From contig QPGO01000169.1 in the NCBI GenBank assembly GCA_008632985.1, positions 1 through 64,000 on the forward strand: 64,000 bases of DNA. The letters run 5' to 3'. The notes below the pieces were generated by a model. The model did no database searches and was not told where the DNA came from. It saw only the letters and a list, made by a program, of their open reading frames with translations. The position numbers and the translations under genes are program-made. Positions 3,072 through 62,583 of the stretch are shown here, piece after piece (position 1 is the first letter of the stretch; each line of letters opens with the position of its first letter). The stretch comes from Psammoneis japonica. Lineage: Eukaryota.

Positions 3072-3099
3072 TGATGCAATTACCAATTATCCTTAACGA

Positions 3100-18762: not shown

Positions 18763-18957
18763 GACGATTTCAAAATGGATGATGGAAAATTGTTCACCTT
18801 GTTGTCTGAGCCAGGTGGATCCCTGACAGCCCTGACAATTTTGACGTTTTCGTCCAGGATCAAAGCAGCAGGTTGCAGCGGTAAGACACGTTCTCGCATC
18901 AAATTTTGACTCTTCAGTGAAGGCAGCCCCGAACCTAGATTATGGCGTTCAACAAGT

Positions 18958-22409: not shown

Positions 22410-22740
22410 GAGCCAATGGCACAGTCAATGAAATCACCCCCCCCCCACTTGAATCATGATTGTGTCATCCATGAAGCCAAACAGTGGCAGTGGCATGGTC
22501 CTGCAGTTGAAAATTGTCCACAGCCACCTCTCAGATGTGCTTTTGTTGTGGTCATTTGTGTTTGAGCAAGAAACTGTTGAAGAAGAATTTCTTGTAATTT
22601 GTCCATGATCATAATTCTCTGATGGGGAAGCAATGACTTGTCGGCTTGAGGGCATGGCACTGCAGCTCATTTGTTTGAAAATGACATTGGCTGTGCATTT
22701 TCATGCCAGTCAAAAGAATCTTCTTTTGGTTCAAGCAGGC
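22410..22740 (-). pseudogene. Decayed partial duplicate of the TMEM65-like gene (related to ~32135-32450)
   Basis: Translates GQITRNSSSTVSCSN...LWTIF...LFGFMDDTIMIQ versus RQITRNYSGTVSRSN...LWTVF...LGFGFMDNTIMIQ in the intact gene. Confidence 0.85.
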
Positions 22741-28825: not shown

Positions 28826-31318
28826 GGCGTCGTTTTTGTGCTTTTTTTGTGCATTGCGGTGAGCGGAGCGACTGCAGAAAAAAATCGACGTTCGCGCGGG
28901 GGCACCTGCGCGCAAGGCACAACACGCAAATTTTTGCATGTGGCACTGAAACATGCAGCCTACATGTGCAAAACTGGTGCAGTTTCTACGACAAAAATCC
29001 AAAAAAAACGCCCAGTTCGTGAGAAAGCTCTGGTGCAAAACCCACGTGAACAGTCCCCACACATTCACGCAGAACTCTGCACATTTCCGGGTTGCGGGTC
29101 CCTCCGCATTTGTGGGGTCCCACAATGATGATGCTGCTGGATGTTCGTTGTTCATGTTCTGGGGGGCATCTTTGGAAGTGAGATCGTCGAAGGCGGTCTG
29201 ATCACCAGTGCGTTTGGGGGTTTTCCCAGTGCAATTTGTGCGCACAAGAAAACACGTAGGATCTGTCCAGAGGTCCCAAATGCCCAATTGCACTGATTGA
29301 CAGACTGTTTTGGTGCAAATTCTATGTAACTTTCTTTGACAGTCTCACTTCCGAAGACGTCCCCCAGTTCGATTGGGTGGCGGGGACATGCATGCATGTC
29401 GTGCCACAGTGCTAGAGTGGAAAGTCTGTCAATCAGTGCGATTGGGGCATTTGGAACACGCTGGACAGGCACGTGCGTGACTCTTCGACTGATCCGACTG
29501 ATCCGACTGATCCAACTGGAGAAGGAGGGTGCCTCCGAGCCAAGATGACTGGTTTTGGTCTTTTGGATTGTGCCCAGTCAAACATCAGTTTTTTGCTTCT
29601 CACTTTTCCAGCTCTGTTGGAACAGGAACATTGACCACTGTGACTGGATCACATTGCAGCTTGGAAAAGGTTTTCCAGCCTGTTCCAGCCCGAGGGGTGA
29701 TGAGCAATCCACCACGACTCGGAAAAGGTTCTTTGCTCTTCTCTCTCCCATCATGTCTGACTTCTTTGCCTCCACCAGCATTGGCAAAGATGCGCTCATT
29801 CATTTGGCTCATCAACTCAAAACGGGTGTGGTCTTGGTTGCTCCTCCAATCTCCAGCAGCAAAAACCCCATTCGCCCAGTTGCCCAGTGCGGTCTTGGGT
29901 GCCGACATGAGAGGGTTGAGGATTGCCACTCCAAAGATGACCACTGGCCACTTGAGGGGAGACAATTTCCCCCAGCTCCTGCCTGTTCAACATCTGGTTG
30001 AAAATGACCCACTCACTTGAAAGACCTCCTCCAACACTTGAGCCCCCAAAGAAGCCAGTGCTTGGGCCCCCATGACCCCCCTGCTGTGGCAGAGGAGAAA
30101 GGCGTGTCTCTCCTTTGTCATCACATGCTGCACCTTGTTGCTGCATCACCTGGTTGGAAGAGACCACTGACTTGTGTCTCATTGCTTTGGCACCAACAAG
30201 GGAAGCGGGGCCGTGCTGTTCTGTTTCAAGAAAGCAGGTGAGTGCAATGCACAAAGCACAAAGGTGACAATTTGTCAACCCCATTGGATGGTTTGGTGGC
30301 AGTCCTTAAAACTCTAGACACCAGGTTCAGCCAACCCATTTTGGATGGGGGCCTGATGTCAGCTGATGTTCTGGTCAAGTGGAAGTCTGTGAAAGACGAC
30401 ACTTTGGCTGATTGGCAAAAGAAATTCCTTGTCCTGCACAACATTGATGACTGTCCCACAGAGGATGAGGTTGGGGCTTCTCCCTGAGAGACTGTCAAAA
30501 AGCTGCTGAGTTTAAGACTGTTTGGCATTGCCTGGGGCTTCAACAGGTTTGGACTTTGTCTCAGAAGGCTGTCGCCACAACACTGGCTCAGTTCTTGGCT
30601 GCGAACAAGAGTCCATCAGCTTTGGCACATGCACAGGGCAATCAGTGGAGGATGGTTTGCACCAGGTGGGAGAAGTTGTGTTTGAACTGAAAGACAAGGT
30701 GCGTGCAAAAGGGAAGTCCATGGATGGAATGATCCAGCTCTTGAGCCAAAAGCTGGACGAACTGGAGGCAGCTTGGTGAACATCACGGCCGGGTTGCAAG
30801 GCCTCAAGATTGGCTTGTCGCCTGCTGGTGATTTTAAGTCTTGGCTTCAGCAACTTTAGAAGGACTGGACAAATGACTCAAATTTTCCACAACTGCTGCC
30901 CCTCTTTTCTGTCATCAACAGATTCCCACAACCTGCCAGTCAACATCCCATTGTCTCATGACACCAGCCACCCCACTCCACTGCCCCCCTCATCCACTCC
31001 ATTCCATCACACCTTCTTCAGCCTCCCCCGTCATGCCCACCCACCACCTTCCCTCCTTCCCTGGCCGCATCGGATCCCGTGCACAGCTTGACAGTTGCTG
31101 TCCAAAGTCTGATTGCCAGACTGTTTCAGTGCAGAATAATTATACAGAAGATTCTTTGTACAGCAGCTGTCCAGAGACGCCTCCCATGCTAGCCATCCTA
31201 GATCAGTGCTTCAACGAAAAATGATTTGGCATGTTGAACATAGTCCCAACTACTGCTTCACACTTCCACGTCTTAGCATTGCTTCATCTCTATAACATTA
31301 TACTCAGTTCAACCAGCT

Positions 31319-33259: not shown

Positions 33260-33472
33260 AAATGTATGGTGAAAGCGTTCTGAATACAACCTTACAGAAT
33301 AGTGGAAGAGTGATCTCGTTTTGCTCACAAGCCGAGAGGCTCGAATACGAAGTAAGCGTATTGTTTAAGGATTAACTGCTGAATTAGCTCCTTAAGTCAT
33401 TATCTTTCCCTGTTTCCTTAGTGAACCCCCTTGCAGATGTTTATGTCTAACACCTGATTTCCCAACCTCTTC

Positions 33473-41803: not shown

Positions 41804-42560
41804 GAGCTGGACGCCAGCGGACAGGATGCACATGCATTTGACACAATGCACAGATTGGGATTTGGGGTCATTGGCAACTGGTTGGTGCAACAAAATGTTC
41901 TTTCAATGACAGTCTTAGCACAGCTGCTGCTGCAGCAGCAGCAGGGCCTGCTCCAGCCAGCAGAGCAGACTGCAGTTTGACTCGGTGATGAACTCGGCAG
42001 TGCGAGTGCAGCAGTGCTCACGCCTTTGGCTTTTCGCTGTTGCACGTGCGACGTGCGTGCGGCATGCTGGCAGTCATCGCAATCGTCTGCTCTCTTTCTC
42101 TGGCAGGTGCAGTGCAGTGCGGCTGCCCGGCACATGCAGTGGGTTCGTTTCTGCAGGGCCCTGCTCTCTCCACTCTAGCTGCCACTGGTAGTGGGACTAG
42201 TAGCCAGCTATCTGCGGCGCGGGCTGGTGGCGCCTTTTTAGGGAAAAAACGCGTGGAACCATGCGCAGACGTTTTTTCCTGCAACTCCCGGCGGTCCCCC
42301 TTAAAATGACATCACATGTTACGATCCGCGGGAGTGGTCCGAGTCATTCAGTCGTTACATTTGTGATCTCTGACGCGCGCTGGTGCTTCCGGTTTTATTC
42401 CGATCCGGGTCTTCCCAAGAATCTGCAGTGAACGCGGATGCAAAAGATATGTTGAAAGAACATCACACATCACGTTCACAATTTCTATTGTTGCCAGTTA
42501 TCAAGTATCCAGGTGAGTTCTCGTCACTCTAGTTTTTCTTTGTCGTTTCGTAAGAGACTT

Positions 42561-42701
42561 GAAAGTAGCGGCAGCACGTGCAGCAAGAGATTGGACATTG
42601 TATTCATATTCGTTGTTTTGCGATCGGGGTTGTGGAAAGTAGCGGTAGCACGTGTAGCAAGAGATTGTATTCAAATTCGTTGTTTTGCGATCGGGTTTGT
42701 G
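42561..42701. repeat. Tandem duplication (74 + 67 bp)
   Basis: GAAAGTAGCGGYAGCACGTGYAGCAAGAGATTG...TTCGTTGTTTTGCGATCGGGKTTGTG occurs twice. Confidence 0.9.
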
Positions 42702-42855
42702 GCGAGAGTTGTTGTTGGCGACATGTACGGATTTTTGCCTCCTTTTCGATCTCGTCACACGATACCAATCTCTCAACAGTGCCAGTATAACTTACGAATC
42801 TTCTTTTTGTCTCGGCGTTGTCTCCTGCGTGCTATTTATAGACCACAGAACAAGA

Positions 42856-44853
42856 ATGCAGCACCAACATTCCGCCAACCTCAAGGATGAGCCCGAGATA
42901 TCACCATCGATCAGTAGTACCGAGACAAAAGCGGAGATCAAGATGCGAGTAGAACAAGAGAAGCTTGGCCGTTTTAGTTCAGAGAAGCAAGAATGTGTGG
43001 ATGCGAATCGAACGACTCGAGCTCCTTCCCGTCGCGCTACGCCAGACCTGGATGATGATGTGATGCCCCCGACGTTGCCAAGCAGGACTCACCAGCACTC
43101 GTCGCTTTTTGCCAAGAAGCCTGAATACAACAAAGAGGATGGCGTAGAGAAGCAGGACATGTCCAAGGCTTCCCTTTCTGGGGCTATCCAGAGGCCAGGC
43201 AGCACGGACAGCATGCCGCCGCAGCAGTCGCAAAGCCAGAATAACCCTTCTTCCTGGTTATCTGGGAAGTCTCCTGAAGCAAACTGGAAAGACAGTCGCA
43301 ATAATGAGACAGTGCCCATAACGTCTCTTGCTGAGGTCTCGGATACACCTGTGCCAGGAGCTGTGCCTGTGTCTGGGATCAATCAGGCAGGTTCTGTAGC
43401 AGCAGCAGCAGCAGCTCGTCGAGCTTCACCTACACGTTCACTGGGTGAAAATGAGCGTTCTGGAGTCGTTGTTGCTGCAATAGTGACGCAGGAAGAGTTG
43501 GCGGATGAAGTCCGAGATCAAGTGCGGTCCGAAATCCACCAAGAACTTCGAGCTCAAATGCCAACAGCAAAAGCGGTCCCCGCGGACAAACATTGTTGGT
43601 CTTCATGGAGCAGGAAACAGAAACTGATTGCGGTTTGTCTACTTTTGCTTGCAATCATTGCTATTGTTGTCGGTGTCGTGCTCGGCACAGGCAATGATAG
43701 CGGTGGCTCCACAGAAGAAAATGTCTTTTCTATTGCACGACTACACAGTTCTCGTGTCGACGACATGTTTGGTAAATATGTTGTTTTTTCAAGAGATGGC
43801 TCAACCATGGCAGTCGGGGGACCAGGCAAAAGCTATGTCAGAACGTTTCAGAACATCAACAATAGCTGGAATGTTATCGGCGAGATACAAGGCAGTGGAG
43901 GGTTCGGCAGTAGGCTTGAATTGTCCAAGAACGGTACTGTAATGGTTGTCGGGGCTCCCGGTACAAGCGACGTGGCGGAGAATGCTGGCCAGGCTAGAGC
44001 TTTTCTATTTGATGGCTCCAATCGCTGGAACCAAATCGGCCAAAACCTGAACGGCTACAATGAAAGCGATTTCTATGGCTGGGACGTGGCCACCTCTGAT
44101 GACGGGCACATTGTAGCCGTTAGCGCACGTAAAGGTGATCCAAGTTCAGAGAAGGTCAATGCAGGGTATACCCGTGTCTTTGGTCTAAACTCTAGCTTGC
44201 TGTGGGAGCAAATAGGCTCTGACTTGAATGGTGAGAATCGCAGTGATCAATTCGGACGATCACTGGATATGAATGGAGACGGCCGCAGAGCAGCAGTTGG
44301 TGCTGTTCGAGGTAATGGTGGCACTGGCCGGATCACCGCGTTTGATTTTGTTCAAGGCGAGTGGAATAGAACAGGTCAGCCTCTCGATGGTGATAACGTG
44401 GAGGACTGGCAAGGCACTTCTCTTTCTTTGACAGGAGATGGGTCAGTCCTTGCGATTGCCGCCGATGGGACAGACACGAACGGAAACAATGCTGGCATGG
44501 TTCGAGTCTACCAACTTGTTGGATGTTGTGACTGGGTCCAACGTGGCCAGAATATTTTGGGAGAGAGTCAAAACGACCAGTTTGGAGCTGGCCATATCTC
44601 GCTGTCAGATGATGGTCAGTTGCTAGCCGTCGGCGCGCTTCACAACAGCAACAATACGGGGAAGGCGTACTTGTTTGAATATAACGACAACGATGAGTGG
44701 GAGCTTCTAGCTGAGGTATTTGGCGAGAACAAAGGCGACAAATTTGGCTTTTCTGTCAACTTGTCGGGAGATGGCTCGCTCTTTGCTGTCGGAGCCCCGA
44801 CCGCAGCAATCGGCTACGTGCGTGTGTACTCGGTGAAGCGCAAGTACTCGTAG
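42856..44853 (+). CDS. Type II membrane protein with extracellular FG-GAP/integrin-alpha-like beta-propeller repeats
   Basis: Disordered N-terminus with PGAVPV, TM helix LIAVCLLLLAIIAIVVGVVLG, then ~7 repeats of FG..V..S.DG...AVGAP. Confidence 0.88.
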   Translation: MQHQHSANLKDEPEISPSISSTETKAEIKMRVEQEKLGRFSSEKQECVDANRTTRAPSRRATPDLDDDVMPPTLPSRTHQHSSLFAKKPEYNKEDGVEKQDMSKASLSGAIQRPGSTDSMPPQQSQSQNNPSSWLSGKSPEANWKDSRNNETVPITSLAEVSDTPVPGAVPVSGINQAGSVAAAAAARRASPTRSLGENERSGVVVAAIVTQEELADEVRDQVRSEIHQELRAQMPTAKAVPADKHCWSSWSRKQKLIAVCLLLLAIIAIVVGVVLGTGNDSGGSTEENVFSIARLHSSRVDDMFGKYVVFSRDGSTMAVGGPGKSYVRTFQNINNSWNVIGEIQGSGGFGSRLELSKNGTVMVVGAPGTSDVAENAGQARAFLFDGSNRWNQIGQNLNGYNESDFYGWDVATSDDGHIVAVSARKGDPSSEKVNAGYTRVFGLNSSLLWEQIGSDLNGENRSDQFGRSLDMNGDGRRAAVGAVRGNGGTGRITAFDFVQGEWNRTGQPLDGDNVEDWQGTSLSLTGDGSVLAIAADGTDTNGNNAGMVRVYQLVGCCDWVQRGQNILGESQNDQFGAGHISLSDDGQLLAVGALHNSNNTGKAYLFEYNDNDEWELLAEVFGENKGDKFGFSVNLSGDGSLFAVGAPTAAIGYVRVYSVKRKYS

Positions 44854-45579
44854 CTTTGTGCCTAAGTCACTCTCTATCTAGTGCATAATTTGTATGTTGA
44901 AAACAAGAATTAGGGCTTTCTGTCTTGCACGGCATTTTACGTGCCGCAGACTCCCTTAGACTAACTTGTGTGCTGTGCCGACACAGCTCTAGAAGGCAGA
45001 TTGACGCACAGACTCAAGAGACATGCCCAGGGACACATTCGTCAATCGCTGGAGTAAGTCGTGCTCAAAGACATTGCTTTGCATTACCAGTGGAGGGAAA
45101 GGGTCCAACCAACTCTTGTTTGTGCAAAGAACATCTGTCTGATGCACACTGCAGAGGATTTTTGATGCCGTCCTTTTTTCTGTTCTTTTCACAAGCTGTC
45201 CATTGTCAAAGAAGAAGAACAGGCAATCACAAGCTGCATGACCAACAGCATGAAAGAGCAATCAGCACATTCTCACTGCTGTGACAAATCCTTTTCAGTG
45301 CTTTCCTTTGAAAGTTGGAGTGTCAAGCATGTCTCACATGCATGCCCGTTGCATCTGCCTGCTCTCAAGGTGTCTCTCCATTATTTTGTTGCAGCAGCAG
45401 CAGCAGCAGCCAAAGGTGGGTTGCAGCAGATGGTGAGTGTGCCCTGCAATCCATGGCAACTGAGCTTTTTGCATTTTTCTCTGCAGCTGAGAGCTGACAA
45501 CAGAAAAAATGTTGTGCAAAGCCACATGTTTGGTTTTTTGAAAAGCTCGGTGGTGCAGGTGACATTTGGGCAGCGTCAA

Positions 45580-45599
45580 TGTGTGTGTGTGTGTGTGTG

Positions 45600-45633
<34 letters not shown>

Positions 45634-45668
45634 GTGAGTGAGTGAGTGAGTGAGTGAGTGAGTGAGTG
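45580..45668. repeat. Compound microsatellite (TG)n(GA)n(GTGA)n
   Basis: Directly visible in the sequence. Confidence 0.97.
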
Positions 45669-47183
45669 GGCTGAGAGTGTGCCAAGAAGATGAGCACCTT
45701 GTTTGCTTCTGTGTTTGTGGTGACAGATGGCACCAGCTGGCTGGCGGTGCACGTCCAATGTCAGGATGTCAAGAAACAGCAGAAATTGCATGTCACAAAA
45801 AGCAACAGCTGGGGCAGCAACACAAAAGTGCTCAAAAAGAAGGTGACACAATTGTTGAAGATGGCCAATTGTTTGATGCACGCCAAAATTTGTTTGCTCA
45901 CTCTGGTGCCACAAGACTCAGCAGCCACTTTTGAGCACAAACATGATGTCCAGCACTCAGACACTCATCAGATTAAACAGCATTGTTGTGGACATCTCAA
46001 GAAGCACAAAGCACAAATTTGCATTTGAGGCATCATCAGTGGCTGACAGAGGGGGGAGCAGATGGCATGGCATTGGGGGAGAGCACAGTCTCTTTTTGCT
46101 CACACATTTTTTGAGCATGTGCTTTGTTTTGCTTTGGGATGAGTTGACCACACTCATGCCTTTGCTGCTGCTCAGTTAAATTTGTGGTGATGCACATTTG
46201 ATCTGCAGGGGCTCCACAGATCTGAAGGGAAGTTGGCTGCATTTTTAAGCTGAGCGAAAGCCTGGGGTGGGGGTTTCTGTCTTTTGCACATCATTTTTGA
46301 GCATCACAGATTCCCTCAAACTGACTCATGTGCTGCGCCTGCACAACTTTAGAAGGCACATTGAAGCACAGACCAGACATGCCCAAGGACACACTCCTCC
46401 TTAAGTGCCACACCGGGTTGTGATCAAAAACATGGCTTTGCATCACCAGTGGAGGGGAGAGGGTCATCCAACCAACTCTTGTTTTTGCAAAGAGTGTGTC
46501 AGCTGTCCATTGCCAAAGAAGAAGAAGAAGAAGAGACCATTGCACTTGCCACCATGGTCCTTCTCAGTGCCCCACTTTGAAAATTGGAGGTTCATTGCTT
46601 GTTTTCCCACTTTCAAGAAGATGTGCTTCATTTGACTGTGAGCACTGTCCATGGGTTGGCAGCAAACAAGAGAAGATCAAAATGGTGAACCAGAGTGTCA
46701 ACGTGTTGGAACAGCCTGGATTACTTACAAGGGAATGTCAAGGTCAGACTGTTGAGGTTTTCGAAAGCAGTGCCAGCTGGAAGGAACATGTGGACAGCAA
46801 AGTCATTGCTCAATTTTGTGGCATGAAAGGCTGGGAGAAGAAGGAGTGGGGAAACTTGAGGGTTTCTTTGATGTGGAAGCTGGTGGTGGCAACATTCTGC
46901 AGCTTGGAAGGAGCGCAAATAAACCCTGCCGATTCCAACACTTGTGACAGCCACGCAGATGCTTCCAACAGCAAGGGCAATGATTGCGCCATCCTCCAGC
47001 TAAATGCAGAGGTGTTGTTGTGCCTTCTTATACGAGTGAGTCCACCTTGGCGTCCTGGATCCACTTTGTTGCTCAGGTAAAACAAAAAGTACAATGTAAA
47101 CAAAAAAAGTAGAACGCAAACAACTATTATCACTACGCCGTCTACTAGCTACTCGTAGCTAGCTGCTTGAGTTGAAAGTGGCA

Positions 47184-48900
47184 CTATGTGGTATCAGGAG
47201 CTCGTGCCTTCTTGGCTGATGGCGCACCCGTAACTTGCTGCTCCTCTATGTACTTTTCGGCAACACACACTTCAGTGAATTCTGTCGATGGATCTTGAGG
47301 GAGCGCTTCGGAAATTGAAACACCGAGCAATTCCGTTTGGTTACTTTCTCCCAACAAAAGCCAACCCCGTGTTTTCTTAATGTCAACGTGACCGCCATCG
47401 GCGCCAACACGATACTTTCGGCATTTTCCTTCCAACCAGACAGATAGACCTATTCCTTCGTCGGCGTCTTCGTTGGGGCATTTGCTGCCTTGTTTGCACT
47501 GATAGCCAGCCACTGCCTTCCATTCGCCAGAGATTCTGTGCAAGACAAAAAAATCATAAACAGGAAAAGAAGCAAGGAGGGGTACCGCCACCACCTGTTT
47601 GACGTTCCGCCGACGAGCGAACTGGCGATCAATGGAGGCAACGATTTGTTGTACGGTGGTTGCCTCCACCCCAACATAGAAGAGCTCGGTTGCTTCGAAT
47701 GCTTCGACACCGGCCTCTGCAATGACCTTGCTATTACGAGGAACAAGATCGTGTTCCAATCCAGTCATCAACCGTATAAGGATCGCCAGCTGGGTAAGCG
47801 CTTCAAAGGCCTTCGCTTCATCAATACTAGGGTGCTGCAAAGTGGCCGTAAGCTGCCTGTAGTCTTTCCCCAGGACTCTTTCTTGGGCAATCATGAAGGC
47901 AGGCCATGCATATTTAGGTGTTTGGTTGCTTTGAGTGAATCTTTCGCTCATGTATGAATACGCTCGGAATAGATTGCGGGCGTTGTTGGCGAGGGAGGAA
48001 ATGTCACCAGAAATAGTAGCCTTGAGACATTTGATGCGCTCGTCTTTGCCATCATCGTCCAGAAATATATCGTCCGTGTATTCAGCAATCGTTCCAGAAT
48101 CTTGCAAGACCAATGCAGGAAGTCGCCCACGTAGGACGGCAGTCCAAAAAGAAGCCTCTTCCGTCGGATCCTTGTAAAGGCCACGAAGACAATTTTCATT
48201 CACGATCCGTGGAATTTGTTTCCAAATGTGTCGGCGCCGCGACAAGGTGAGATCACAATCGTTTGCGACACGTCCTCTCAGCAAATCAGCTGTACTACGC
48301 TTGTGAGTTGAGTATAGCAAAGCGCATCCAACTCGCTGGACGATATTGGCGACAAGTGCGCTCATATCATCGTACCGGGGTGCGGTGTGAGGAATGATGT
48401 TAAGCTCGTCCACGATGAGAATAACTTTCTTGTCCGTCAGCCAGTCATCAACAGCACCAAAGTCGCTGTGTTTTTGTCTGAAACTTATGAAGGACTTCAC
48501 AGTTCGATCGGTGAGCTCCCACGCAATTCTAGAAAGGATGGCATCGTAGGCTGACTCTTCGGCCCGAGCGTATGGTGTCACGCTATTGAGGGATATGAAG
48601 ATGATCATCGTATCTAATGGGAGCCTATTGCCTTTGCGGCGCTCCAGCATACTGGCGACAGCATGAAGCATAAACGTCTTCCCTCCTCGACGACAACGCT
48701 GAATAGCCACAGGAGCAGATCGCTTGGTGCATTCAGATTCATCTAGAGATGCCTCCTCGATCAGAGCTGAAACTGTGCCCTCGAACTCGCCATGGTTAAC
48801 AGGGTTAACCGGTTTGCATAGTTTACGGAATTCAGCTCCAAAATCTCTTGTGGGGTTTGCGCCATCAGGTACTATAAAACTAGTAGTGTCTGACACCATG
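47184..48900 (-). CDS. Crinkler/RHS-like protein: divergent P-loop NTPase + C-terminal restriction-endonuclease-fold domain
   Basis: Walker A-like RCRRGGKT, Walker B ILIVDE, then AFEAL...FPVYDFFV...GYQCK. Likely start MVSDTT at 48900. Confidence 0.72.
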
Positions 48901-48999
48901 GTGTTGCTTGTTCGTGATGAGAATGACCGACTGGTGTCTCTCCAACGTGAGGGGAGCTGCCTGGCGGCTGGAGGTGTTTGGCCGTGTCGCCTGGCGAGA

Positions 49000-49252
49000 T
49001 TCATCGTGGAACCCCGCAAATACGCGGGGACCCTCCTGTAGAGGTCTACGCGCATTTTTGTATGTGGTACAAAAACATGTAGCCTACATACGCAAAACTG
49101 GTACAGTTTCTACGACAAAATTTCGAAAAAACGCCTAGTTCGCGAGATAGCTCTGGTACAAAACCTACGTAAAAAGTCCCCATACATGCACGTACAACTC
49201 TACACATTTCCGGGTTGCGGGTCCCCGCGTATTTGTGGGGTTCCACGATGAA
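49000..49252. mobile_element. Intact palindromic MITE-like element, ~34-bp TIRs
   Basis: TTCATCGTGGAACCCCGCAAATACGCGGGGACCC ... GGGTCCCCGCGTATTTGTGGGGTTCCACGATGAA, with GA on both flanks. Confidence 0.88.
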
Positions 49253-51576
49253 GATGACGGTGAGAATCATCATGTGCCATGTGCATCCCGTCACGATTGA
49301 ACATGTACCCCGGTATCGTTTAGTCTTGGCGCCAAAACCCAGGGCGCCACACCCGGTTTTTTATTTAATTTTTTCAATACGGAAATTATGCATTCGACCA
49401 AGAAATTCCTTTTTTCATACGGAGCACTAACATTTTCGGCTGCTTGTTCGGCATTACCAACACTCTTTCGATGTGTCATAACGCCACCCTCTTATACTCT
49501 GTACAGTTCTGAAGAGTTCTCAATAGAAAACCAATGGCAAAGTGTGTACTCTACAAGAGACACAGCTGTCACCAGAAATGGGGCATGGCGCCCGGGTTTT
49601 TCATTTTTGTGTGTGTCAACCTGATTTTGATCTTCGACTTAGTGTTTCCCGACTCAAAATTGGGCGCAAACAAAATTTGGCAAATCGGTTTTTTCTAAAT
49701 TTGTGCGAAGGTGTCCATGACAGGTGGGCCACAACAGATGGTGCATTCGCCCACTGTCTTGGACAGCTGAGCATTTGGTGCTCATCTCCACAGCCAAGAA
49801 CTTGCAGCAGAAAAAGACAGGCTTTGCAAACACATGTGGTGTTTGGTGTTTTGAAAAGCTCAGCAGCACAAGAGCCAAGTTGTGCACTGCTCAGTTTGAT
49901 TCCACCCATTTGGGGATTCCCAAAATGGCCAGGGTGCCGCAAGGGGGAGTCAGTCTAACTTGCCCTTGTGGGGGAAGGGGGGATCCCGGGAAATGAGGGT
50001 AATTTTACGGGAAGGAACGCCTGAAAGGGCTCAGGGGAGGGGAACAAAAACGAATGGAATGTGGGCAATGAATGGCAATTGTGGTCAGGTGGGTGTGCTT
50101 TCATCCTCATGACTGCTGCGTGTGCGTGCGCAATGCAGGCACTGTGCAATGCATCGACACATCGACACAAAGCGGCCCCTTTTGGCAGAGCAAGGAAAGA
50201 AGAAACTCACCATTGCATCAGCCACATTAACATTGCTGATGTGAGGTTCTATTTTTGCCTTGTCCTTTGCTCCAGAGCCCTTGTGGTTTGCATTTGTGAC
50301 CACGCGACACAAGCAGGAGAACACATGATGCACTGCACTCTGCACACAAGTTGGGTCAAAGGAAAGAACAATCATGACCACTCAATCCGCCACATTTTTG
50401 TCAGCCTTTTGAGGCTCTGCTTTTGCCTTGGCCTTTGTTCTAGATGCCTTGTGGTTTGCATTTGTGGCTGCACGACAGCAAAGTGATTCTCCAAACGACT
50501 CGCGCTTCATTTCTGCACATGAAATGTGTCAATTGGAAGAATGAGCATGATTGTTCAATCCTCTACATTGTGACCGCATGACAAAAGAACAAGTGCAATG
50601 ATCAATGCACTGGTTTTCGGGGAATTGCCGGTGCACAATTTTTCATTTGTGTGTTCAGCGCACACACACAACAAAGGGCAATTTGTGGCAATTCCCCGGG
50701 AACTCACCCTTTCCATAGAAAAACAGGGTAAAAGGTGGTGATCCCGGGGAATTTTGTTCAAAAACATGGTAAAACCAAACTGAGGTGCACCATGACAGAG
50801 CAGTGTTTGGGCAGCATCGCTCAGCAGAGCAGACAGAGTTTTCAAATTGCAGAACCAACTGGTCAGATGCCTGAGGGCTGTGTGTTGCCACAGAAGTTGA
50901 GGAGAGGCTCTTGGCCAAGAGCTGGTGAAGAGCCCTGGCCAGCACCCAGCACTTGCATGGCAACAAGAAATGTGGCATGTGAGGGGGTGAGCACTGGTGG
51001 CTCGCACCTTTGCAGCATGAAAGGAGCTGTGGTTGGGAATTTCTGGCATTCCAGTCAAGAGTTTGTTTGACCTCTGGGCTGCCCAACACAAGCAGAGTTG
51101 CCACTCACCTCAATGACACATTGCACTCTCTGCCCTCTTGACTGAGTTTCTTGGTTTGCACAGCTCTTGAGAGAAACTCAACTTCAATTTGAACACCAGA
51201 AGCTCCACAGGTTGTCAGAGCAACAGTGAACATTTTCCCAAAGCACCAAACATGTTCCCAGTCACCTCAGATGTGCTTTGGCAGAGCTGTGTGCACACGT
51301 CAAATTGGCGTGGATGTGGCAGGGCCAACTGGTGTTCATTTGTGTTTGTGATGAAAGCACAGCTTCTTTCCAATGTGCATTCTTGGTTTCATGCTGATTG
51401 TCATGCAAGCAAGTGTGCCAAGGGTGCAAGCCTTGACAGCTGGCATTGACAGCATGAGAAACAAAAAATCGGGGGAAAGTCCAGTCAGATTTGCTTGCAC
51501 AAAAAGCACGGCAATGGAAAAGGGACAGACAAAACGTCTCAACTCCGCATGCGCATTTCTCACTCGGGATGAAAAC

Positions 51577-52228
51577 ACATCAGGCCAGGCTCTTGATGGT
51601 GACAATGTGGAGGGCTGGCAAGGCACTTTTTTTTTTGCACAAAGTGGTTCAGTCCTTGCAATTGCCACCAATGGAGCAGACATGAACAGAAACAATGCTG
51701 TGGCATGGCTCAAGTGGGCCACCAACTCGAATTGGACATTGCAGCTGGGCTCAGTGTGCAGCCACACAGAACATTCTGGAAGAGAGTCAAAATGACCAGT
51801 TTGGAGCTGGCCACATCTTGCTGTCAGACAATGGTCAGCTGCTGGCCATGGGGCACTTCACAATGGCAATGATGCTGGGAAGGCAAGCTTGTTTGGGCCC
51901 AACATCAACAACAAGTTGGGCTTCTGGCTGAGGTGTTTGGTGAGAATGGAGGAGGCAAATTTGGCTTTTCCATCAACTTGTCAGGATGTGACTCACTCTT
52001 GCTTCACTGTCAGAGCCCCAGCTGTGGCAATTGGCTGCATGTGCATGCACTCAGTGAACAAAGCACCAGTGTGCTCACAGCTTTGTGCCTGCTTTCTGTC
52101 TTGGAGTGTGGCTTGCATGATGTTGAAAACTGCAGAAGTTGGGGTTTTCTGCCATCTTGCATGGCATTTTGCATGTTGCACATTTCTGTGGACTGACACA
52201 TGTGGTGTGTTGATAAAAATCTAGAAGG
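51577..52228 (+). pseudogene. Hypermutated duplicate of the 3' part and 3' flank of the FG-GAP gene (~44371-44997)
   Basis: GQALDGDNVEGWQGT and QNILEESQNDQFGAGHILLSDNGQLLA match the gene. DNA similarity continues past the stop to TCTAGAAGGC. Confidence 0.93.
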
Positions 52229-52639
52229 CCAGCTTGGGTGGAGAGAGCACAATGTTGTTTTTCCACAGCAGACGTCAGAGTCTTCTGACATTGGCCAAGT
52301 TGGGTGACATGGAGCTGGTCATTGTTGACATTGATGTGACAACATTGACCAAATTGGGTGATGGCACGGAAGCAATTGTTGTTGACACTGACACCAAGTT
52401 TGGTGTGTCATTGAGAGCTCAGCGCTGGCAGAAGTTGCTGTGCCATGTGTCTGTCTTTTCAAACAAAGGGTCAAGCCAGTCTGCTGCATCAAGCATTTGA
52501 GCTGAACACAGAATGAAGTCTTTGCGCTGAGTGCAAAGGCCCTCTGAGTTGTTGAGTGGCGTGCAAGTGCACCATTTGCAGAGCACCCCAATTTTAAGAG
52601 CCACACAGGAGGAGTTGCGACTGAGGGGGGGGGGGCAAT

Positions 52640-53020
52640 GGAGCCGTGCAGGCTGCACGACCAGAAGCTCAACACCCAGAGCAGCACAGAGGCTGAACTT
52701 GTGAGAGTCAATGATGCAACAGCCATGACTCTGTCAACAAAGTTGTTCATGGAGCACCACAGGGGCATTCAATTGACAAGAGCATCCTTTGCCATGGTGA
52801 TGAGAGCACCATGCTGTTGAAAATGAATGAGCGCAGGAAGGAGCACCAGAAAGTGATCCAGAGCACTTGACATTTGGCGCTTCTTTGTTGCCAACCAGAT
52901 CAAGAAGAGCAATCTCAGAGCTCAGTGTTGTCTGACCAATGGCATGATGCTTGGAGGCTTCATGACTGAGCCACTGCAGGGCAAGAAATTTCAAAAGTTA
53001 AACAAGCCATTGTGGGCTGT
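52640..53020 (+). mobile_element. Decayed Ty1/Copia RNase H fragment (second family)
   Basis: QKLNTQSSTEAELV.VND...TKLFME and, downstream, GGFMTEPLQGKKFQK. Confidence 0.8.
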
Positions 53021-53442
53021 TAACTTCAAGCATGACAGGAGCATTTCCCTTTTGCATGTCAGATGAGAACTCTGATCTGAGTGGGTGAAAGACCCCTGCA
53101 GCCCAGAAGACATCATGAGCCACAGGGTTCAACCAGCCACAACTTGTTCCAACAGAACTGCTCTGTTCTTCTTCAGAACAACTGCTCTCCATGAGTGAGG
53201 CTGACAAGAATGAGCACAATCTGCTGCACAACATGACAGTGCAGAAGTGGCCATGGAGCTGCTGGGACAAGTTTTTGAGACTGTCAAGCATTGTGATCAA
53301 AAGAAAACAAGAAATCTGAAATGGGAAATTCCTTCTTGCAAGACACAAGATGAGCCAAGTCAATTCCTCAAGAGTGGAAAGAGGCAGTTCTTGACTGCAA
53401 ACCCACACCTCTTCTGTTGCAATGTTGTGGACATGGTGCATC

Positions 53443-53851
53443 NNNNNNNNNNNNNNNNNNNNNNNNNNNNNNNNNNNNNNNNNNNNNNNNNNNNNNNNNN
53501 NNNNNNNNNNNNNNNNNNNNNNNNNNNNNNNNNNNNNNNNNNNNNNNNNNNNNNNNNNNNNNNNNNNNNNNNNNNNNNNNNNNNNNNNNNNNNNNNNNNN
53601 NNNNNNNNNNNNNNNNNNNNNNNNNNNNNNNNNNNNNNNNNNNNNNNNNNNNNNNNNNNNNNNNNNNNNNNNNNNNNNNNNNNNNNNNNNNNNNNNNNNN
53701 NNNNNNNNNNNNNNNNNNNNNNNNNNNNNNNNNNNNNNNNNNNNNNNNNNNNNNNNNNNNNNNNNNNNNNNNNNNNNNNNNNNNNNNNNNNNNNNNNNNN
53801 NNNNNNNNNNNNNNNNNNNNNNNNNNNNNNNNNNNNNNNNNNNNNNNNNNN
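53443..53851. other. Assembly gap (N run)
   Basis: Run of N. Confidence 1.
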
Positions 53852-56800
53852 CCAGACAGAAACAGCGTCAATGAGTCACACAAATTGTTGGCTGTTGGTT
53901 GTCCCATGAACCTGTGGCATGGGCACATTTTGGGTTTGTGGTCCCCTTGTGGTGCATTGCAACACCAGCCACCTTCCTGGTCCACCATGAGACAGCGACA
54001 AAATGAGTTCCACATTTGGCAAACTTGCCCCAGAATGGAGTTCTTCAAAATTTGATTTCTGAGATGATCAATGGTTGGATCATGAATTTGATTGCCAGCC
54101 CACACAGAAAAATTGCACAAGAGAAAGCTTGTTGTGCTCATGTGGAACATTTTGTGGGAGTGTGTGTGAGGCACAACACACTTGTTCGATGACATGGTTG
54201 GCCCATGACTGCTTTCCAAAACCTTGGCCATGACTGACATTCCATCAACAATGAGGTCTGAGGCTGGCACAGTCACATCACCCACCACACAACTCAAGCT
54301 GGCTGGAAGAAATGCACAGTTTTTGTTGTTGCCAAGACGAGTTGATGAGTCTTGAAAGAGCCCGGAGTTGGGCACAACAGAAGGCACTCTCTTGAGCTCA
54401 GGGCCATCTTCCCATGCTCAGTCAATCCAAAACAAGTGAGCACTGCAGCCCTCACTTGTTGCCTTGCAACTTGTGAACTTCACTCTGCTGCTTGCTTGGT
54501 GCTGGCTGAAAATTGAGGAATTTGTGGGGGGTGGATTGGAGCTGCCAGTGGCCAATGACCATGACTTCAGCTTTGCAGTCTGCACTGGTGGGTTTGACCT
54601 CCACAAAATGGCTGCCAGATGTCTGGGCCGGTGCACTCCTTGAAGGCAAGCCCCATTGCCAGCTGCCACCATGCTGGATGATGCGCTTGCTTTGTCCTTG
54701 CAATGGAGCGTGCGTGGTCGAGCCGGAACACAGCAGGAATCATTGCGGCTCTCAGAGTCATTGCGCAGAAATTGTGCAGAAGAGCACAAGAAATGGTTGT
54801 CATCAGTCTGTCCACCCGTTCACATTTGAATGTCAACTCCCTCTCGGGAACTCAATTGAAATGTCATCTGATCAAGGGCACTGCTCTTCACCATCTAAAA
54901 ATCAAAATGCCCTTGATCAGATGACATTTCAATTGAGTTCCCGAAAAGTCAGCAGCCCTGATCACCCTCTCTCGCATGACATTGTGCACATTTCTGCGCA
55001 ATTTGGCATTTTTCCTTGTGCAAAATGCCAATTGTGACTCTTGCGACATTTTCGAATGATTCCTGCCGGCATTGTCTCAAAATCATGAAATCATGTGCTT
55101 GAGGTTCGTCAATCAAATGGTGTGGGATGCCGCACATGATGACAACGCTGACGTGGAAGGTCATCCGTCAAGCAAATGCTCCTTGTGTGCGGCACAAATT
55201 TAATGCCGCACACAAGGCGGAGGACAAAACAAGGTTGTGCCGCACATGGGGGCGATTTGTTGCTTGCTCAACGGGGTAAATTTTAAAGTCATCACACATT
55301 GCCCTTTTGTCATTTTAATCAAGTTAGTCAAACACAGCTTTAAACCGCCGTTGTGCGGCACGTGCACGGAATTGAGAGATCTTGTGCAAATGTCACCAGT
55401 CTAACTCAAGCAACCAGGACAGTGAACATAGAAAATGTGAAGGCATTCTAAGTAGAAAGAATTGCCATTGTCAGCTGTTGCTTGTTTCACTGTCTCTCCA
55501 TTGTCACATTTCTTCTTTTTTGAAGTTGCTCCTGCCTCCTCGTCTGTCGCAACACAAGCGCTTGTCTCATCCACTTCCTTCCTGCCACCATGCTGTGCAC
55601 ATTGCTCAAAGCATTTTGCTTTTCAACTCTGCAACAAAGTGCTCTGAGTTGGCAACACCAGAAGCTGAGCTCTTGCAGCCATGAGCTCACCAGCAGCACA
55701 GCTGAGCGCCGCCGCATGGCGCCAAGGCTGCACAAAGTCAGCTTGCTTCTCTCTGCATGGCTTCTTGACTTTGCTCATGCCACCCTTGCAAAAGCAGGCC
55801 TTTGTTTTCTTGCCCCGCTTTTGCTGCTGCCCACCTTGGGCTTTGGCACGTGCTGGAGATCATTTCTGGCCACCTCAGATGCTGCGCACCTGCAAGCCTC
55901 TGCACTTTTTGTCTTTTCTTTTTGTTGTTGCTCTGGCTTCTTGCTGCTCCAACACACAGCACTGCTTTCTGCTGCTGCTGCTGCTGCTGCTGCTTTTGTT
56001 CATGATCTTGGTGCTTCTGCAAAGCATTGTGCTGGGGAGCTCCTTCCTTGTGAAAGCTGTGCAAAGAGGTGATTTTTTCCAGATCTGCAAAGAGGTCATG
56101 GAGTGCACACTTGTGCTCTCATTTGACAGAAGCAGTGCACAGCAGCAGACAGACATCTTCAGCAAGCTCCAGGAGTGCTTTTGTGTGCTGCTTGGAGATT
56201 CAGCGACAAGTGCTAAAGCAGCTTTTTGTGAGGCAGCTCTCAACAACAACTGGGCGAAACCCCAAAGTGGTGCTGAGAATGCTTTGCAGTTTGCAGGGTG
56301 CTGCTCAAGTGATGGACAACATGCAGAATTTCTCAGCTGGCTTGCTGTGGTGGCAATGAGCTCTTGCTGGGCTGGGCTGTGCAGAGCATCTCAGCTGCTT
56401 GCTTTTGGCACCCAAAGCAGTCTGACAATTTTCCTCTTTTGGAATTTTGTTCATCCCTTCCACCTGTTTCTTCAAGATGCAGCATGCAGCATGGCTCTCT
56501 GTGAGAGCTGACATGTGGTGCCATCCTGACTTCTTTTGCTTTGCCAAAATTGCAGCCATCAGAGCTGTGGCTGGACACACACTGCTTCTGCACAAACTCC
56601 TTGTCTGCATGCCACACTTTGTTTCACACCAAATTGTGAGGCAAATCTCAGCTGGTGCAACTGGCACACACCCCAAAATGGCATTGAAAACACTTTGTGG
56701 GGTGCTGCTTGGCTGTGGACAACCTTCGGCCTTCTTGGCTGGGGCCAGCTGGGGGGCAGCAGTGAGCTCTCTTGCTGGGTCACACAACACGCTTCAGAGC

Positions 56801-62034: not shown

Positions 62035-62175
62035 TTAGTGGGGCTCTCAGTTGTGATCACAAAGCATTGGGCATCCACCACTGGAGAGAAATACGAAAAG
62101 ACAGGAAAGCGCTTTCTCCTTTGATGTGTGCCCTCTCATTTTGTCACAACTTATTTCTTTACGACGCAAAATGAC

Positions 62176-62583
62176 ATGGAAGAGATGGCATGCAGCAGCA
62201 AAGACGATGAAGATTCCAGTTCGCCCAGAAAGGAGCTTCCCAAGTTTCTGGGAGACATTCGGTTCTTGACTCTCAATGAAAAGAAAAGGCTGCACTTGAG
62301 TGGTCCTGATGGAATCTTTGCCGGTGACAAGACGCACTGCCAGTGGCTCAAGAATGAACAAGTGCACCATGCTCAATGCGCTTGTTGCGGTGATGGTTCC
62401 AAGGACGTGAAACTCTTTCACTGCAGCCATTGTGAGATCACAGCATGCTGTGGAAAGGACTGTCAGAAGAAGCACTGGAAAGTTCACAAAAAGGTGTGCA
62501 AAGAGCCCAACAATGAACGTTTCAAAATTGCCGTGCAGCATCGGGGCAATGAGCAGCGTGGCTGTGCGCAGGTGGATGTGTGA
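62176..62583 (+). pseudogene. MYND zinc-finger gene remnant
   Basis: CACCG...LFHCSHCEITACCGKDCQKKHWKVHKKVC, where the canonical YC reads CC. Confidence 0.75.

What the first reader, a model, noticed from the sequence alone, without database searches (positions are those of the whole stretch)
51577..52228. A duplicated host-gene fragment is hypermutated while the source gene is spared
Against ~44371-44997, nearly every TA and CG has changed: GATAACG->GACAATG, GAATATT->GAACATT, CCATATCTCG->CCACATCTTG, GCTAGCCG->GCTGGCCA, GGTATT->GGTGTT, GGCTACG->GGCTGCA, GTACTCGTAG->GTGCTCACAG. The intact ORF polarises the changes. So the process is not TE-sequence-specific, and unlike RIP the intact copy appears untouched. 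That suggests chromatin-domain targeting, or selection preserving the gene.
Basis: seen in the sequence. Interest (0 to 1): 0.72.

Follow-up and report, generated by a model that had tools for sequence, protein, structure and literature searches.

The report
Gene fragment erased of TA and CG
A dead partial copy of a diatom membrane-protein gene has lost almost every TA and CG because it lies in silent DNA, while the live gene 7 kb away lies in a protected block and is spared.

Summary
Window 51552-52237 is a frame-broken duplicate of the last ~507 nt of coding sequence plus ~150 nt of 3' flank of an FG-GAP membrane-protein gene (44337-45004). The genome is a diatom's. In the strict alignment 0 of 35 CG and 1 of 24 TA survive in the copy. 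Of those 59 sites, 52 became TG or CA by one transition. Other dinucleotides survive at 368 of 548.

The pattern is not special to this pair. About 44% of the window is TA/CG-depleted DNA (TA observed/expected 0.04, CG 0.21). It alternates sharply with normal blocks that hold genes and their flanks (TA 0.56, CG 0.95). A second host-gene fragment and a small inverted-repeat element show the same polarity.

The source gene is not depleted in its duplicated part. Non-coding DNA inside the normal blocks is spared as well. This favours targeting by domain over selection on the gene.

TA loss is faster than CG loss and prefers purine-TA-pyrimidine contexts. It shows no strand runs and appears continuous.

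The TA-to-TG/CA signature matches de novo hypermutation measured in the alga Bigelowiella natans (2026 preprint). I found no report for diatoms. The enzyme is unknown; adenine deamination is my inference.

The parts
42856..44853 (+). Live source gene: single-exon ORF for a membrane protein with one TM helix (43624-43686) and FG-GAP repeats. Possible starts are at 42856 or 42943; the stop codon ends at 44853.
   Evidence: Stop-to-stop ORF 42658-44853. Pfam FG-GAP_2 E = 1.8e-16. Homologs at 33-54% identity, the named ones from diatoms. Start and TM positions.
44337..45004 (+). Source segment that was duplicated: the last ~507 nt of CDS plus ~150 nt of 3' flank. It has normal TA and CG content.
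   Evidence: Alignments. TA O/E is 0.53 and CG 1.04 in the duplicated CDS.
51552..52237 (+). Hypermutated, frame-broken copy of 44337-45004. This is the finding.
   Evidence: Confirmed by a 926-nt contig at single-copy depth with 0 differences.
41983..45060 (.). Normal ('spared') block holding the source gene, about 900 nt upstream of it and about 200 nt downstream.
   Evidence: Two-state segmentation: 104 TA and 183 CG, and 38% of pyrimidine-purine steps are TA or CG. The upstream non-coding part 41983-42942 has TA 0.59 and CG 1.09.
50055..55143 (.). Depleted block that contains the copy. It is interrupted by an N gap at 53443-53851.
   Evidence: 13 TA and 63 CG in 5.1 kb; 7% of pyrimidine-purine steps are TA or CG. 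TA O/E is 0.00-0.06 per kb.
45062..46905 (.). Depleted block directly downstream of the source gene. The two depth bins inside it, 45407-46740, are at single-copy depth.
   Evidence: 9 TA and 12 CG in 1.8 kb. X1 depth is 59-72 in bins 45407-46740, against 60-66 on the genes.
46241..46519 (+). Second depleted partial copy of the gene's 3' flank (source 44888-45158).
   Evidence: Purine/pyrimidine-coded self-comparison, pair table, three-way alignment.
22412..22736 (+). Independent replicate: a depleted copy of part of the TMEM65-family gene (source 32138-32451, inside ORF 31322-32551 on the minus strand).
   Evidence: Of 11 TA in the gene copy, 8 became CA or TG and 0 are kept. Of 12 CG, 9 became CA or TG and 1 is kept. 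TMEM65 Pfam hit.
28893..29157 (+). TA-depleted, CG-retaining copy of a small element with inverted ends. Its normal copy is at 49021-49282, upstream of gene 47187-49109(-).
   Evidence: 2 of 19 TA kept, 11 of 17 CG kept. Inverted ends 49000-49033 and 49219-49252.

Best explanation
The stretch is a dead partial duplicate of the 3' end of a host FG-GAP membrane-protein gene. It lies in non-genic, probably silent DNA of a diatom nuclear genome.

In such DNA two context-specific transition processes run continuously. (a) TpA is converted to TpG or CpA (A:T to G:C). This is very fast and fastest in purine-TA-pyrimidine contexts. (b) CpG is converted to TpG or CpA. This is about 4-5 times slower.

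Both act site by site on either strand. They act by where the DNA lies, not by what it is or whether it is repeated. The live gene lies in a sharply bounded spared block that covers the coding sequence and its non-coding flanks (about 900 nt upstream and 200 nt downstream).

Shown: the dinucleotide fate, the polarity, the domain structure, the sparing of non-coding DNA in gene blocks, the context preference, the absence of strand runs, and the fit to a continuous process.

Inferred: (a) is enzymatic adenine deamination on DNA, of the kind proposed for Bigelowiella natans (an ADAT2-like enzyme). (b) is deamination of 5-methylcytosine in methylated silent DNA. The address is a chromatin or transcription state.
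For: Fate of TA and CG in the focal pair: 0 of 35 CG and 1 of 24 TA kept, and 52 of 59 went to TG or CA.

Three further pairs show the same polarity.

Window-wide structure: pooled depleted DNA (18.9 kb) has TA 0.04, CG 0.21, TG 1.74, CA 1.80. Pooled normal DNA (25.7 kb) has TA 0.56 and CG 0.95. The segmentation gives 27.8 kb depleted and 35.8 kb normal, and every ORF with a gene-type Pfam match lies in a normal block.

Non-ORF DNA of the normal blocks is spared: TA 0.60 and CG 0.93 over 7,584 nt in 18 pieces. Codon-boundary dinucleotides of 10 ORFs show TA 0.60 and CG 0.88.

The source is not depleted in its duplicated part.

TA loss is faster than CG loss. The element copy at 28.9 kb lost 17 of 19 TA but only 6 of 17 CG. 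Of 126 windows of 500 bp, 23 are TA-depleted only. Equilibrium ratios in depleted DNA are (TG+CA)/TA = 80 and (TG+CA)/CG = 18.

Context: purine-TA-pyrimidine makes up 32% of TA in normal DNA, 10% in intermediate and 2% in depleted DNA. Pyrimidine-TA-purine makes up 15%, 36% and 58% (chi-square p about 1e-15).

No strand runs: 27 TG against 28 CA outcomes, runs z = -0.13.

Continuity: transitions outside pyrimidine-purine steps are 45 of 332. This predicts 13.0 TG-CA double flips, and 14 are seen. Only 3 of the 96 TG/CA steps became TA or CG.

Two depleted copies of the 3' flank resolved the same ancestral TA/CG differently, so each was mutated in place after duplication.

Counterpart in print: in Bigelowiella natans 230 of 231 de novo mutations in two hypermutable integrated viral regions were A-to-G or T-to-C, and all of these fell on TpA. 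The larger of the two regions is transcriptionally silent (preprint 10.64898/2026.01.13.699255; abstract, Results and Discussion read).
Against: No whole genome is held. The domain rule therefore rests on one 64-kb window.

No methylation, chromatin or expression data exist for this organism here, so 'silent domain' is inferred.

The Bigelowiella process is reported as TpA-only and aimed at foreign DNA. Here CpG is lost as well and host-derived DNA is hit.

The TG-CA flips in the coding part lie mostly at codon boundaries (10 of 12, against 54% expected from where TG/CA lie; binomial p about 0.04 computed by hand and 32 counts). At one 3'-flank site both depleted copies share CA where the gene has TG. 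A few changes on the gene's own lineage therefore cannot be excluded.

The context preference is read from the make-up of surviving TA, not from polarised events. Only 5 of 61 polarised TA were kept, too few to test.

No deaminase gene could be looked for.
Confidence: 0.72

Rival explanations
1. There is no targeting. A genome-wide mutation pressure against TA and CG acts everywhere, and purifying selection keeps TA and CG in the live gene.
For: TA O/E in the normal blocks (0.56) is at the low end of what relatives' gene-dense contigs show: mean 0.68, range 0.57-0.80 over 28 loci. TG-CA flips are enriched at codon boundaries, 10 of 12.
Against: Non-ORF DNA in the normal blocks (7,584 nt) has TA 0.60 and CG 0.93, like the ORFs. 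The non-coding stretch upstream of the gene has TA 0.59 and CG 1.09. Codon-boundary TA and CG are 0.60 and 0.88. Block borders are sharp. Some 'non-ORF' pieces may hold exons I did not annotate.
Confidence: 0.1
2. A RIP-like process triggered by duplication mutated the copy because it is a repeat. Diatoms carry DNMT4, a relative of the fungal RID protein.
For: The mutated DNA is a duplicate. Depleted repeats differ from each other by independent resolution of the same sites. DNMT4 related to RID occurs in 31 of 60 diatoms surveyed, with unknown function (PMC9998398, passages read).
Against: RIP makes C:G-to-T:A changes, mostly at CpA, in both copies (PMC2621366, start of abstract in the listing). 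Here TA is destroyed, not made. The source copy is untouched. A depleted stretch at single-copy depth exists at 45407-46740. There are no strand runs. The element copy next to a gene is normal although other X1 and X2 contigs match it, so it seems to be repeated.
Confidence: 0.05
3. The copy was made from another, diverged paralog that already lacked these TA and CG sites, so the comparison with the gene at 44337-45004 misleads.
For: No genome is held, so paralogs cannot be listed. The depth bin 51410-52076 sums to 1281, so some part of it is repeated elsewhere. The pair is only 76-78% identical.
Against: Differences outside TA/CG show no third-position excess, and the frame is broken. The whole 5-kb block around the copy is equally depleted. 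The unbroken 926-nt contig at depth 67 argues against close paralogs of the copy. The contig break at 51493-51497 and a loose end at 51457 suggest, without showing it, that the repeated part lies left of the copy. Two other gene-to-depleted pairs show the same polarity.
Confidence: 0.05
4. The copy is a 5'-truncated retrocopy of the mRNA, and the changes are RNA editing (ADAR-like A-to-I at UA) fixed by reverse transcription.
For: The copy holds the 3' end of the CDS plus 3' flank, the usual shape of a truncated retrocopy. ADARs favour U before the edited A (preprint Discussion).
Against: Outcomes fall on both strands equally, 27 TG against 28 CA. Editing of one RNA strand would give TG only. 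No poly(A) follows 52237. CG is lost too. An element with inverted ends and all the surrounding non-genic DNA are depleted alike.
Confidence: 0.03
5. It is a sequencing or assembly artefact, for example modified bases in silent DNA being misread.
For: Methylated motifs cause systematic base-calling errors on some platforms (recalled, not tested here).
Against: A k-mer contig from a run at about 60x covers the copy with 0 differences and no branching. Each site is fixed as TG or as CA, whereas misreading of a base modified on both strands would give a mixture. The pair also differs by 22-24 transversions and 48-50 gap columns. The run is probably the assembly's own sample.
Confidence: 0.03

Closest known systems
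TpA-targeted hypermutation of integrated viral DNA in the chlorarachniophyte Bigelowiella natans (Mettrop et al., bioRxiv 10.64898/2026.01.13.699255; abstract, Results and Discussion read; supplements closed)
   Same: TpA goes to TpG or CpA by A-to-G or T-to-C changes on either strand. The effect is regional and sharply elevated. The larger hypermutable region is transcriptionally silent and single-copy. [quoted passage not shown] The authors propose an ADAT2-like DNA adenine deaminase.
   Different: Here the organism is a diatom, a different supergroup branch. Depletion is far deeper: TA O/E 0.04, against a Rho of 0.45 for their NCLDV region. CpG is lost as well. Host-gene fragments are substrates, which argues against recognition of 'foreign' sequence. 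A purine-TA-pyrimidine preference is seen here; their supplements, which may list flanking bases, could not be read. No de novo rates are available here.
Decay of methylated CpG to TpG/CpA in silenced repeats (diatom TEs are CpG-methylated: PMC9998398 passages; PMC5124317 one passage)
   Same: CG goes to TG or CA. CG O/E is 0.21 in non-genic blocks and 0.95 in gene blocks. The rate excess is about 18 times the per-site transition rate per dinucleotide, if at equilibrium.
   Different: This explains only the CG half. TA loss is 4-5 times faster, has its own context rule, and occurs in blocks that keep their CG (for example 27256-27780, with 1 TA and 40 CG).
Repeat-induced point mutation (RIP) of fungi
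   Same: Transition hypermutation ruins duplicated and transposon DNA and leaves a dinucleotide footprint.
   Different: RIP turns CpA into TpA and so enriches TA. It hits both copies and needs repetition. Here TA is erased, the source copy is spared and single-copy DNA is hit.
5-hydroxymethyluracil in dinoflagellate DNA, made by a TET/JBP-type enzyme and linked to TE silencing (PMC11572971, listing and start of abstract only). Its preference for T before A is recalled from older literature and was not checked.
   Same: A modification of the T:A pair in silent or repeat DNA of a related protist group. It could in principle give T-to-C changes at TpA.
   Different: No evidence for this base in diatoms was found: 32 papers hold both words, 15 were listed, and none reports it (listing only). 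No mutational footprint of this kind is reported in what I read.

Membership tests
Bigelowiella-type TpA hypermutation | Substitutions fall on TpA and give TpG or CpA | tested here: met
   20 of 24 TA in the source are TG or CA in the copy; 21 of 24 with the tolerant alignment. Replicates: 8 of 11 and 14 of 19.
Bigelowiella-type TpA hypermutation | [quoted passage not shown] | tested here: met
   98 of 251 overlapping 500-bp windows have a TA share below 0.04. The blocks are contiguous. TG and CA O/E are 1.74 and 1.80.
Bigelowiella-type TpA hypermutation | Spectrum almost exclusively A:T to G:C | tested here: not met
   CG-to-TG/CA changes (G:C to A:T) are as complete as TA loss in the focal copy: 32 of 35.
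Bigelowiella-type TpA hypermutation | Targets are of viral or other foreign origin | tested here: not met
   The focal copy and the copy at 22412-22736 derive from host genes. No viral domain was found in 120 ORFs of 90-149 aa lying outside the main gene blocks (depleted and part-depleted regions) or in the 72 ORFs of 150 aa or more across the window.
Bigelowiella-type TpA hypermutation | De novo mutation rate raised by orders of magnitude in the region | not testable with these tools
   This needs mutation-accumulation or pedigree sequencing. Only an equilibrium estimate could be made: TA removal is about 80 times the per-site transition rate.
Bigelowiella-type TpA hypermutation | Target region transcriptionally silent | tested here: inconclusive
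   No RNA run is on record. Run X2 covers only the gene blocks, but its library type is unknown.
RIP (fungal) | C-to-T at CpA, creating TpA | tested here: not met
   TA is destroyed. CA-to-TA was seen once in 36-39 CA.
RIP (fungal) | Both copies of a duplication are mutated | tested here: not met
   TA O/E is 0.53 in the duplicated and 0.53 in the unduplicated CDS of the source; CG is 1.04 against 0.80.
RIP (fungal) | RID/DNMT4-type enzyme present | not testable with these tools
   No genome is held.
Methylated-CpG decay | CG goes to TG/CA, with low CG O/E and TG/CA excess | tested here: met
Methylated-CpG decay | Cytosine methylation of the depleted blocks | not testable with these tools
   No methylome is available.
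Processed pseudogene (retrocopy) | Poly(A) tail and target-site duplication at the copy's ends | tested here: not met
   No A-run follows 52237. Decay could have erased one.

The most novel reading that the evidence does not exclude
Diatoms have a DNA-editing system addressed by chromatin state. It deaminates adenine at TpA, best in purine-TA-pyrimidine contexts, in any DNA that lies in silent domains, host-derived DNA included. Together with methyl-CpG decay it erases such DNA. It is the same system as the one caught in action in Bigelowiella, which would make it old and widespread in the stramenopile-alveolate-rhizarian group. Its address would be silence, not foreignness.
Probability: 0.3. 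Interest if true: 0.85.

Novelty: new variant of a known kind. Interest (0 to 1): 0.72.

Why it matters
A mutation process that removes TpA has so far been described, as far as my searches reach, only in one 2026 preprint on a chlorarachniophyte. There it is read as a defence that recognises viral DNA.

This window shows the same signature in a diatom, carried to near completion over about 44% of the sequence. The duplicated host-gene fragment is a natural experiment on targeting: the same sequence is erased in one place and intact 7 kb away. That points to position or chromatin state as the address. Neither sequence origin nor repetition fits as the address.

It also matters in practice. Such DNA loses TAA and TAG stop codons and shows long false ORFs (for example 51339-51857 on the minus strand, 173 aa). 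It escapes similarity searches, so transition-blind (purine/pyrimidine) comparison is needed to find its origins.

Tried and rejected
Whole genome: none is held. Paralog listing, genome-wide segmentation and a search for deaminase or DNMT genes were therefore impossible.

Expression: no RNA holder is listed. Run X2 covers only the gene blocks at uneven depth, but its library type is not on record, so I do not use it as evidence.

Earlier scan notes: nothing on this genome, sequence or theme.

Rfam: 0 matches in the window.

Tandem repeats: none in or next to the copy.

Pfam on 120 ORFs of 90-149 aa from the depleted and part-depleted regions outside the main gene blocks: only sub-threshold hits. 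Pfam on 72 ORFs of 150 aa or more across the window: gene families lie in the normal blocks; one Harbinger-type DDE fragment lies at 38833-39363.

Relatives: 72 metagenome loci around RPC2 homologs have 0 depleted-type 500-bp windows. These contigs are gene-dense and from other species, so this is only a weak control.

Polarised test of the context rule: underpowered, since only 5 of 61 TA were kept.

Strand-run tests: negative in the focal pair. Across 11 depleted segments z ranged from -1.88 to +2.68.

Literature: 9 full-text searches were run. The five that paired 'diatom' with TpA, dinucleotide, RIP or hypermutation terms (14, 15, 29, 34, 61) gave no diatom report of TpA depletion. One search matched 806 papers at 4 of 5 terms, and only the top 15 were seen.

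Slips: a length slip and a search-term slip were corrected.

Full report
WHAT THE WINDOW IS

The window is diatom nuclear DNA. An RNA polymerase III second-largest-subunit gene (3103-7071, minus strand; seven Rpb2 Pfam domains) is 78-84% identical over residues 600-1323 to the named diatom proteins listed, and up to 89% to unnamed ones. No whole genome is held for it. Everything below rests on these 64 kb, on public-run contigs laid on 20 kb of it, and on 72 metagenome loci of relatives.

THE OBSERVATION

The source is a single-exon gene. Its stop-to-stop ORF is 42658-44853, with possible starts at 42856 or 42943. It encodes a protein with one TM helix and FG-GAP repeats (Pfam FG-GAP_2, E = 1.8e-16). 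Homologs are 33-54% identical, and the named ones are from diatoms.

A strict local alignment pairs 44365-45003 with 51574-52236. It has 627 columns, 77.8% identity, 115 transitions, 24 transversions and 48 gap columns.
- None of 35 CG survives in the copy: 19 became CA, 13 TG, 3 other.
- One of 24 TA survives: 12 became TG, 8 CA, 3 other.
- The other fourteen dinucleotide types survive at 368 of 548. Fisher p = 9e-25.

A transition-tolerant alignment extends the pair to 44337-45004 and 51552-52237, with the same outcome.

A 926-nt contig from public run X1, at depth 67, covers 51497-52422 with no difference. Gene contigs in the same run have depth 60-66. The copy is therefore real and present once. 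X1 is probably the assembly's own sample.

POLARITY, AND THE PARALOG OBJECTION

The copy is a pseudogene fragment. Its reading frame shifts among all three frames and holds stops. Substitutions outside TA/CG contexts are spread evenly over codon positions: transitions 8/17/8 and transversions 6/4/4 for positions 1/2/3. A copy that had spent time as a constrained paralog, or a fast-changing source gene, would show a third-position excess.

The copy ends about 150 nt past the stop codon. A second depleted copy of the 3' flank lies at 46241-46519 (source 44888-45158). In the three-way alignment the two depleted copies resolved the same ancestral sites differently: an ACGG became ATGG in one and ACAT in the other, and a TTAG became TG in one and CA in the other. 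A CTAG is kept in all three. Each copy was therefore duplicated while it still had its TA and CG, and was mutated where it now lies.

I cannot list paralogs without the genome. One depth bin over the copy (51410-52076) sums to 1281. The unbroken single-copy contig, the contig break at 51493-51497 and a loose end at 51457 suggest that the repeated part lies left of the copy. The output does not show this directly.

THE SOURCE IS SPARED

The unduplicated part also gives 0.53 (43 seen, 81.9 expected). CG is 1.04 against 0.80. There is no sign of reciprocal damage.

THE PATTERN IS A PROPERTY OF DOMAINS

Per-kb profiles alternate between two states.
- Normal: TA 0.5-0.6, CG 0.8-1.1.
- Depleted: TA 0.00-0.1, CG 0.1-0.4, TG and CA 1.5-2.0.

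A two-state segmentation on pyrimidine-purine steps gives 35.8 kb normal and 27.8 kb depleted. The long normal blocks are 1330-7253, 8040-10631, 17599-21703, 22805-26053, 31137-35118, 41983-45060 and 46914-49706. They hold all ORFs with gene-type Pfam matches.

Pooled values:

| DNA | Length | TA O/E (count) | CG O/E (count) | TG O/E | CA O/E |
|---|---|---|---|---|---|
| Depleted | 18.9 kb | 0.04 (52) | 0.21 (236) | 1.74 | 1.80 |
| Normal | 25.7 kb | 0.56 | 0.95 | not quoted | not quoted |

The key point against 'selection keeps the gene' concerns non-coding DNA. The 7,584 nt of normal blocks lying outside the long ORFs (18 pieces) have TA 0.60 and CG 0.93. The ORFs have 0.55 and 0.96. The 960 nt upstream of the FG-GAP gene have TA 0.59 and CG 1.09. 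Dinucleotides across codon boundaries in ten ORFs have TA 0.60 and CG 0.88. Some of the 'non-ORF' pieces may contain unannotated exons.

Gene-dense contigs of relatives have TA 0.68 (range 0.57-0.80) and CG 0.89 over 28 loci. The genes here are therefore ordinary, at the low end for TA.

NOT REPEAT-TRIGGERED, NOT SEQUENCE-SPECIFIC

A purine/pyrimidine-coded self-comparison ignores transitions. It recovers further pairs.
- A fragment of the TMEM65-family gene (32138-32451) has a depleted copy at 22412-22736. Of 11 TA, 8 became CA or TG and none is kept. Of 12 CG, 9 became CA or TG and 1 is kept.
- A roughly 250-nt element with inverted ends is normal at 49021-49282, next to a gene's 5' end. At 28893-29157 it is TA-depleted: 2 of 19 TA kept, but 11 of 17 CG kept. 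An X1 contig joins 48998 to 49278 without the element, so the normal copy may simply be young.
- Bins 45407-46740 of the depleted block 45062-46905 are at single-copy depth (59-72). By contrast 36-42 kb sums to 300-2000. Depletion therefore does not need repetition.

TWO PROCESSES

TA loss and CG loss are separable. Of 126 windows of 500 bp, 27 are depleted in both, 23 in TA only, and 76 in neither by my thresholds. Blocks such as 27256-27780 (1 TA, 40 CG) and 37575-38052 (7 TA, 42 CG) keep their CG. The second of these lies in the high-copy 36-42 kb region, which may be younger.

If depleted DNA is near equilibrium, (TG+CA)/TA = 80 and (TG+CA)/CG = 18. TA is then removed about 4.5 times faster than CG, and about 80 times faster per dinucleotide than the per-site transition rate.

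Surviving TA show a context rule (chi-square p about 1e-15 for each comparison with normal DNA):

| Context | Normal (305/141 of 956) | Intermediate (21/74 of 208) | Depleted (1/30 of 52) |
|---|---|---|---|
| purine-TA-pyrimidine | 32% | 10% | 2% |
| pyrimidine-TA-purine | 15% | 36% | 58% |

CG shows no such rule: the purine-CG-pyrimidine share is 24%, 24% and 31%. The rule is inferred from survivors. Polarised events are too few to test it, since only 5 of 61 TA were kept.

MODE OF ACTION

Outcomes fall on both strands equally and without runs. In the focal pair there are 27 TG and 28 CA, with 28 runs against 28.5 expected. Eleven depleted segments give z from -1.88 to +2.68. This is unlike strand-coordinated hyper-editing.

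The pair also shows 14 TG-CA double flips among 96 TG/CA of the source, but only 3 single steps back to TA or CG. The transition rate outside pyrimidine-purine steps is 45 of 332, or 13.6%. Suppose any TA or CG newly made from TG or CA is quickly resolved at random. Then 13.0 flips are expected, and 14 are seen. The process has therefore kept running since the duplication. It was not a single early burst.

In pairs where both members are depleted, flips make up 17-24% of TG/CA (12 of 51, 9 of 40, 6 of 36). This is what independent resolution of shared ancestral TA/CG predicts.

A caveat: in the coding part, 10 of 12 flips straddle codon boundaries. TG/CA placement predicts 54% there (binomial p about 0.04, by hand). 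A few synonymous changes on the gene's own lineage cannot be excluded.

COMPARISON WITH WHAT IS KNOWN

RIP turns CpA into TpA in both copies of a repeat (PMC2621366, start of abstract). Every tested feature differs here. Diatoms do carry DNMT4, a relative of RID with unknown function (PMC9998398, passages).

CpG decay in methylated silent DNA explains the CG half. Diatom TEs are CpG-methylated (PMC9998398; PMC5124317, one passage).

The TA half has one counterpart that I could find. In Bigelowiella natans mutation-accumulation lines, 231 of 302 nuclear mutations fell in two integrated viral regions. Of these, 230 were A-to-G or T-to-C, and all of those fell on TpA. The rates there were about 1000 times the background. 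[quoted passage not shown] They read it as a defence against foreign DNA.

The present window differs in five ways:
- it comes from a diatom;
- the depletion is far deeper;
- CpG is lost as well;
- a context rule is visible;
- host-gene fragments are substrates.

My searches that paired 'diatom' with TpA, dinucleotide, RIP or hypermutation terms found no diatom report. None of the 72 relatives' loci shows a depleted-type window, but these are gene-dense contigs of other species.

VERDICT

The finding is one clean local case of a domain-wide TA and CG erasure in a diatom. The gene-fragment pair is its most informative part, because it separates 'where' from 'what'. The enzyme and the chromatin address are inferred, not shown.

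Noticed in passing
window 27256-27780, 28771-29536, 37575-38831, 39642-41160: Blocks that have lost nearly all TA but keep normal CG (for example 1 TA and 40 CG in 27256-27780). TA loss and CG loss are therefore separate processes, and these blocks would show which chromatin mark goes with TA loss.
   Followed up: partly
window 49000-49282 (also 28893-29157, 24780-24901): A roughly 250-nt element with inverted ends (49000-49033 and 49219-49252), looking like a miniature transposon. An X1 contig joins 48998 to 49278 without it, so the insertion next to the gene's 5' end may be polymorphic or recent.
   Followed up: partly
window 36069-42071 and 48742-50742: Summed contig depth is 300-2000 against about 60 for single-copy DNA, so these are high-copy repeat families. 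A Harbinger-type DDE fragment lies at 38833-39363. Copies elsewhere differ from the window by adjacent TG-CA flips (for example 36452/36453 and 38825/38826).
   Followed up: partly
window 33401-34892, 42638-44903, 47180-48905: Run X2 covers only gene blocks, at uneven depth (21, 121, 86), and none of the fully depleted bins. This is what a transcript library would give, but its library type is not on record.
   Followed up: no
window 3-911: An ORF that looks like part of a Copia-type polyprotein (my recollection of the motif; no Pfam hit). It has intermediate TA depletion (O/E 0.31) and CG 0.80, so it may be a young element in the course of decay.
   Followed up: no
window 51339-51857 (-), 55669-56508 (+) and many others in depleted blocks: Long stop-free ORFs with no family match. 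They are expected by-products of erasing TA, which removes TAA and TAG stop codons, and are a trap for gene prediction.
   Followed up: partly
window 27387-27582: Three tandem 60-nt repeats at 89-92% identity, in a CG-rich, TA-free block that is open in several frames.
   Followed up: no
window 62125-62580: An ORF with a zf-MYND match (E = 5.6e-6) lying in part-depleted DNA (TA O/E 0.07). It may be a decaying gene or TE-borne domain.
   Followed up: no
window 53443-53851: A run of 409 N (an assembly gap) inside the depleted block that holds the copy.
   Followed up: no
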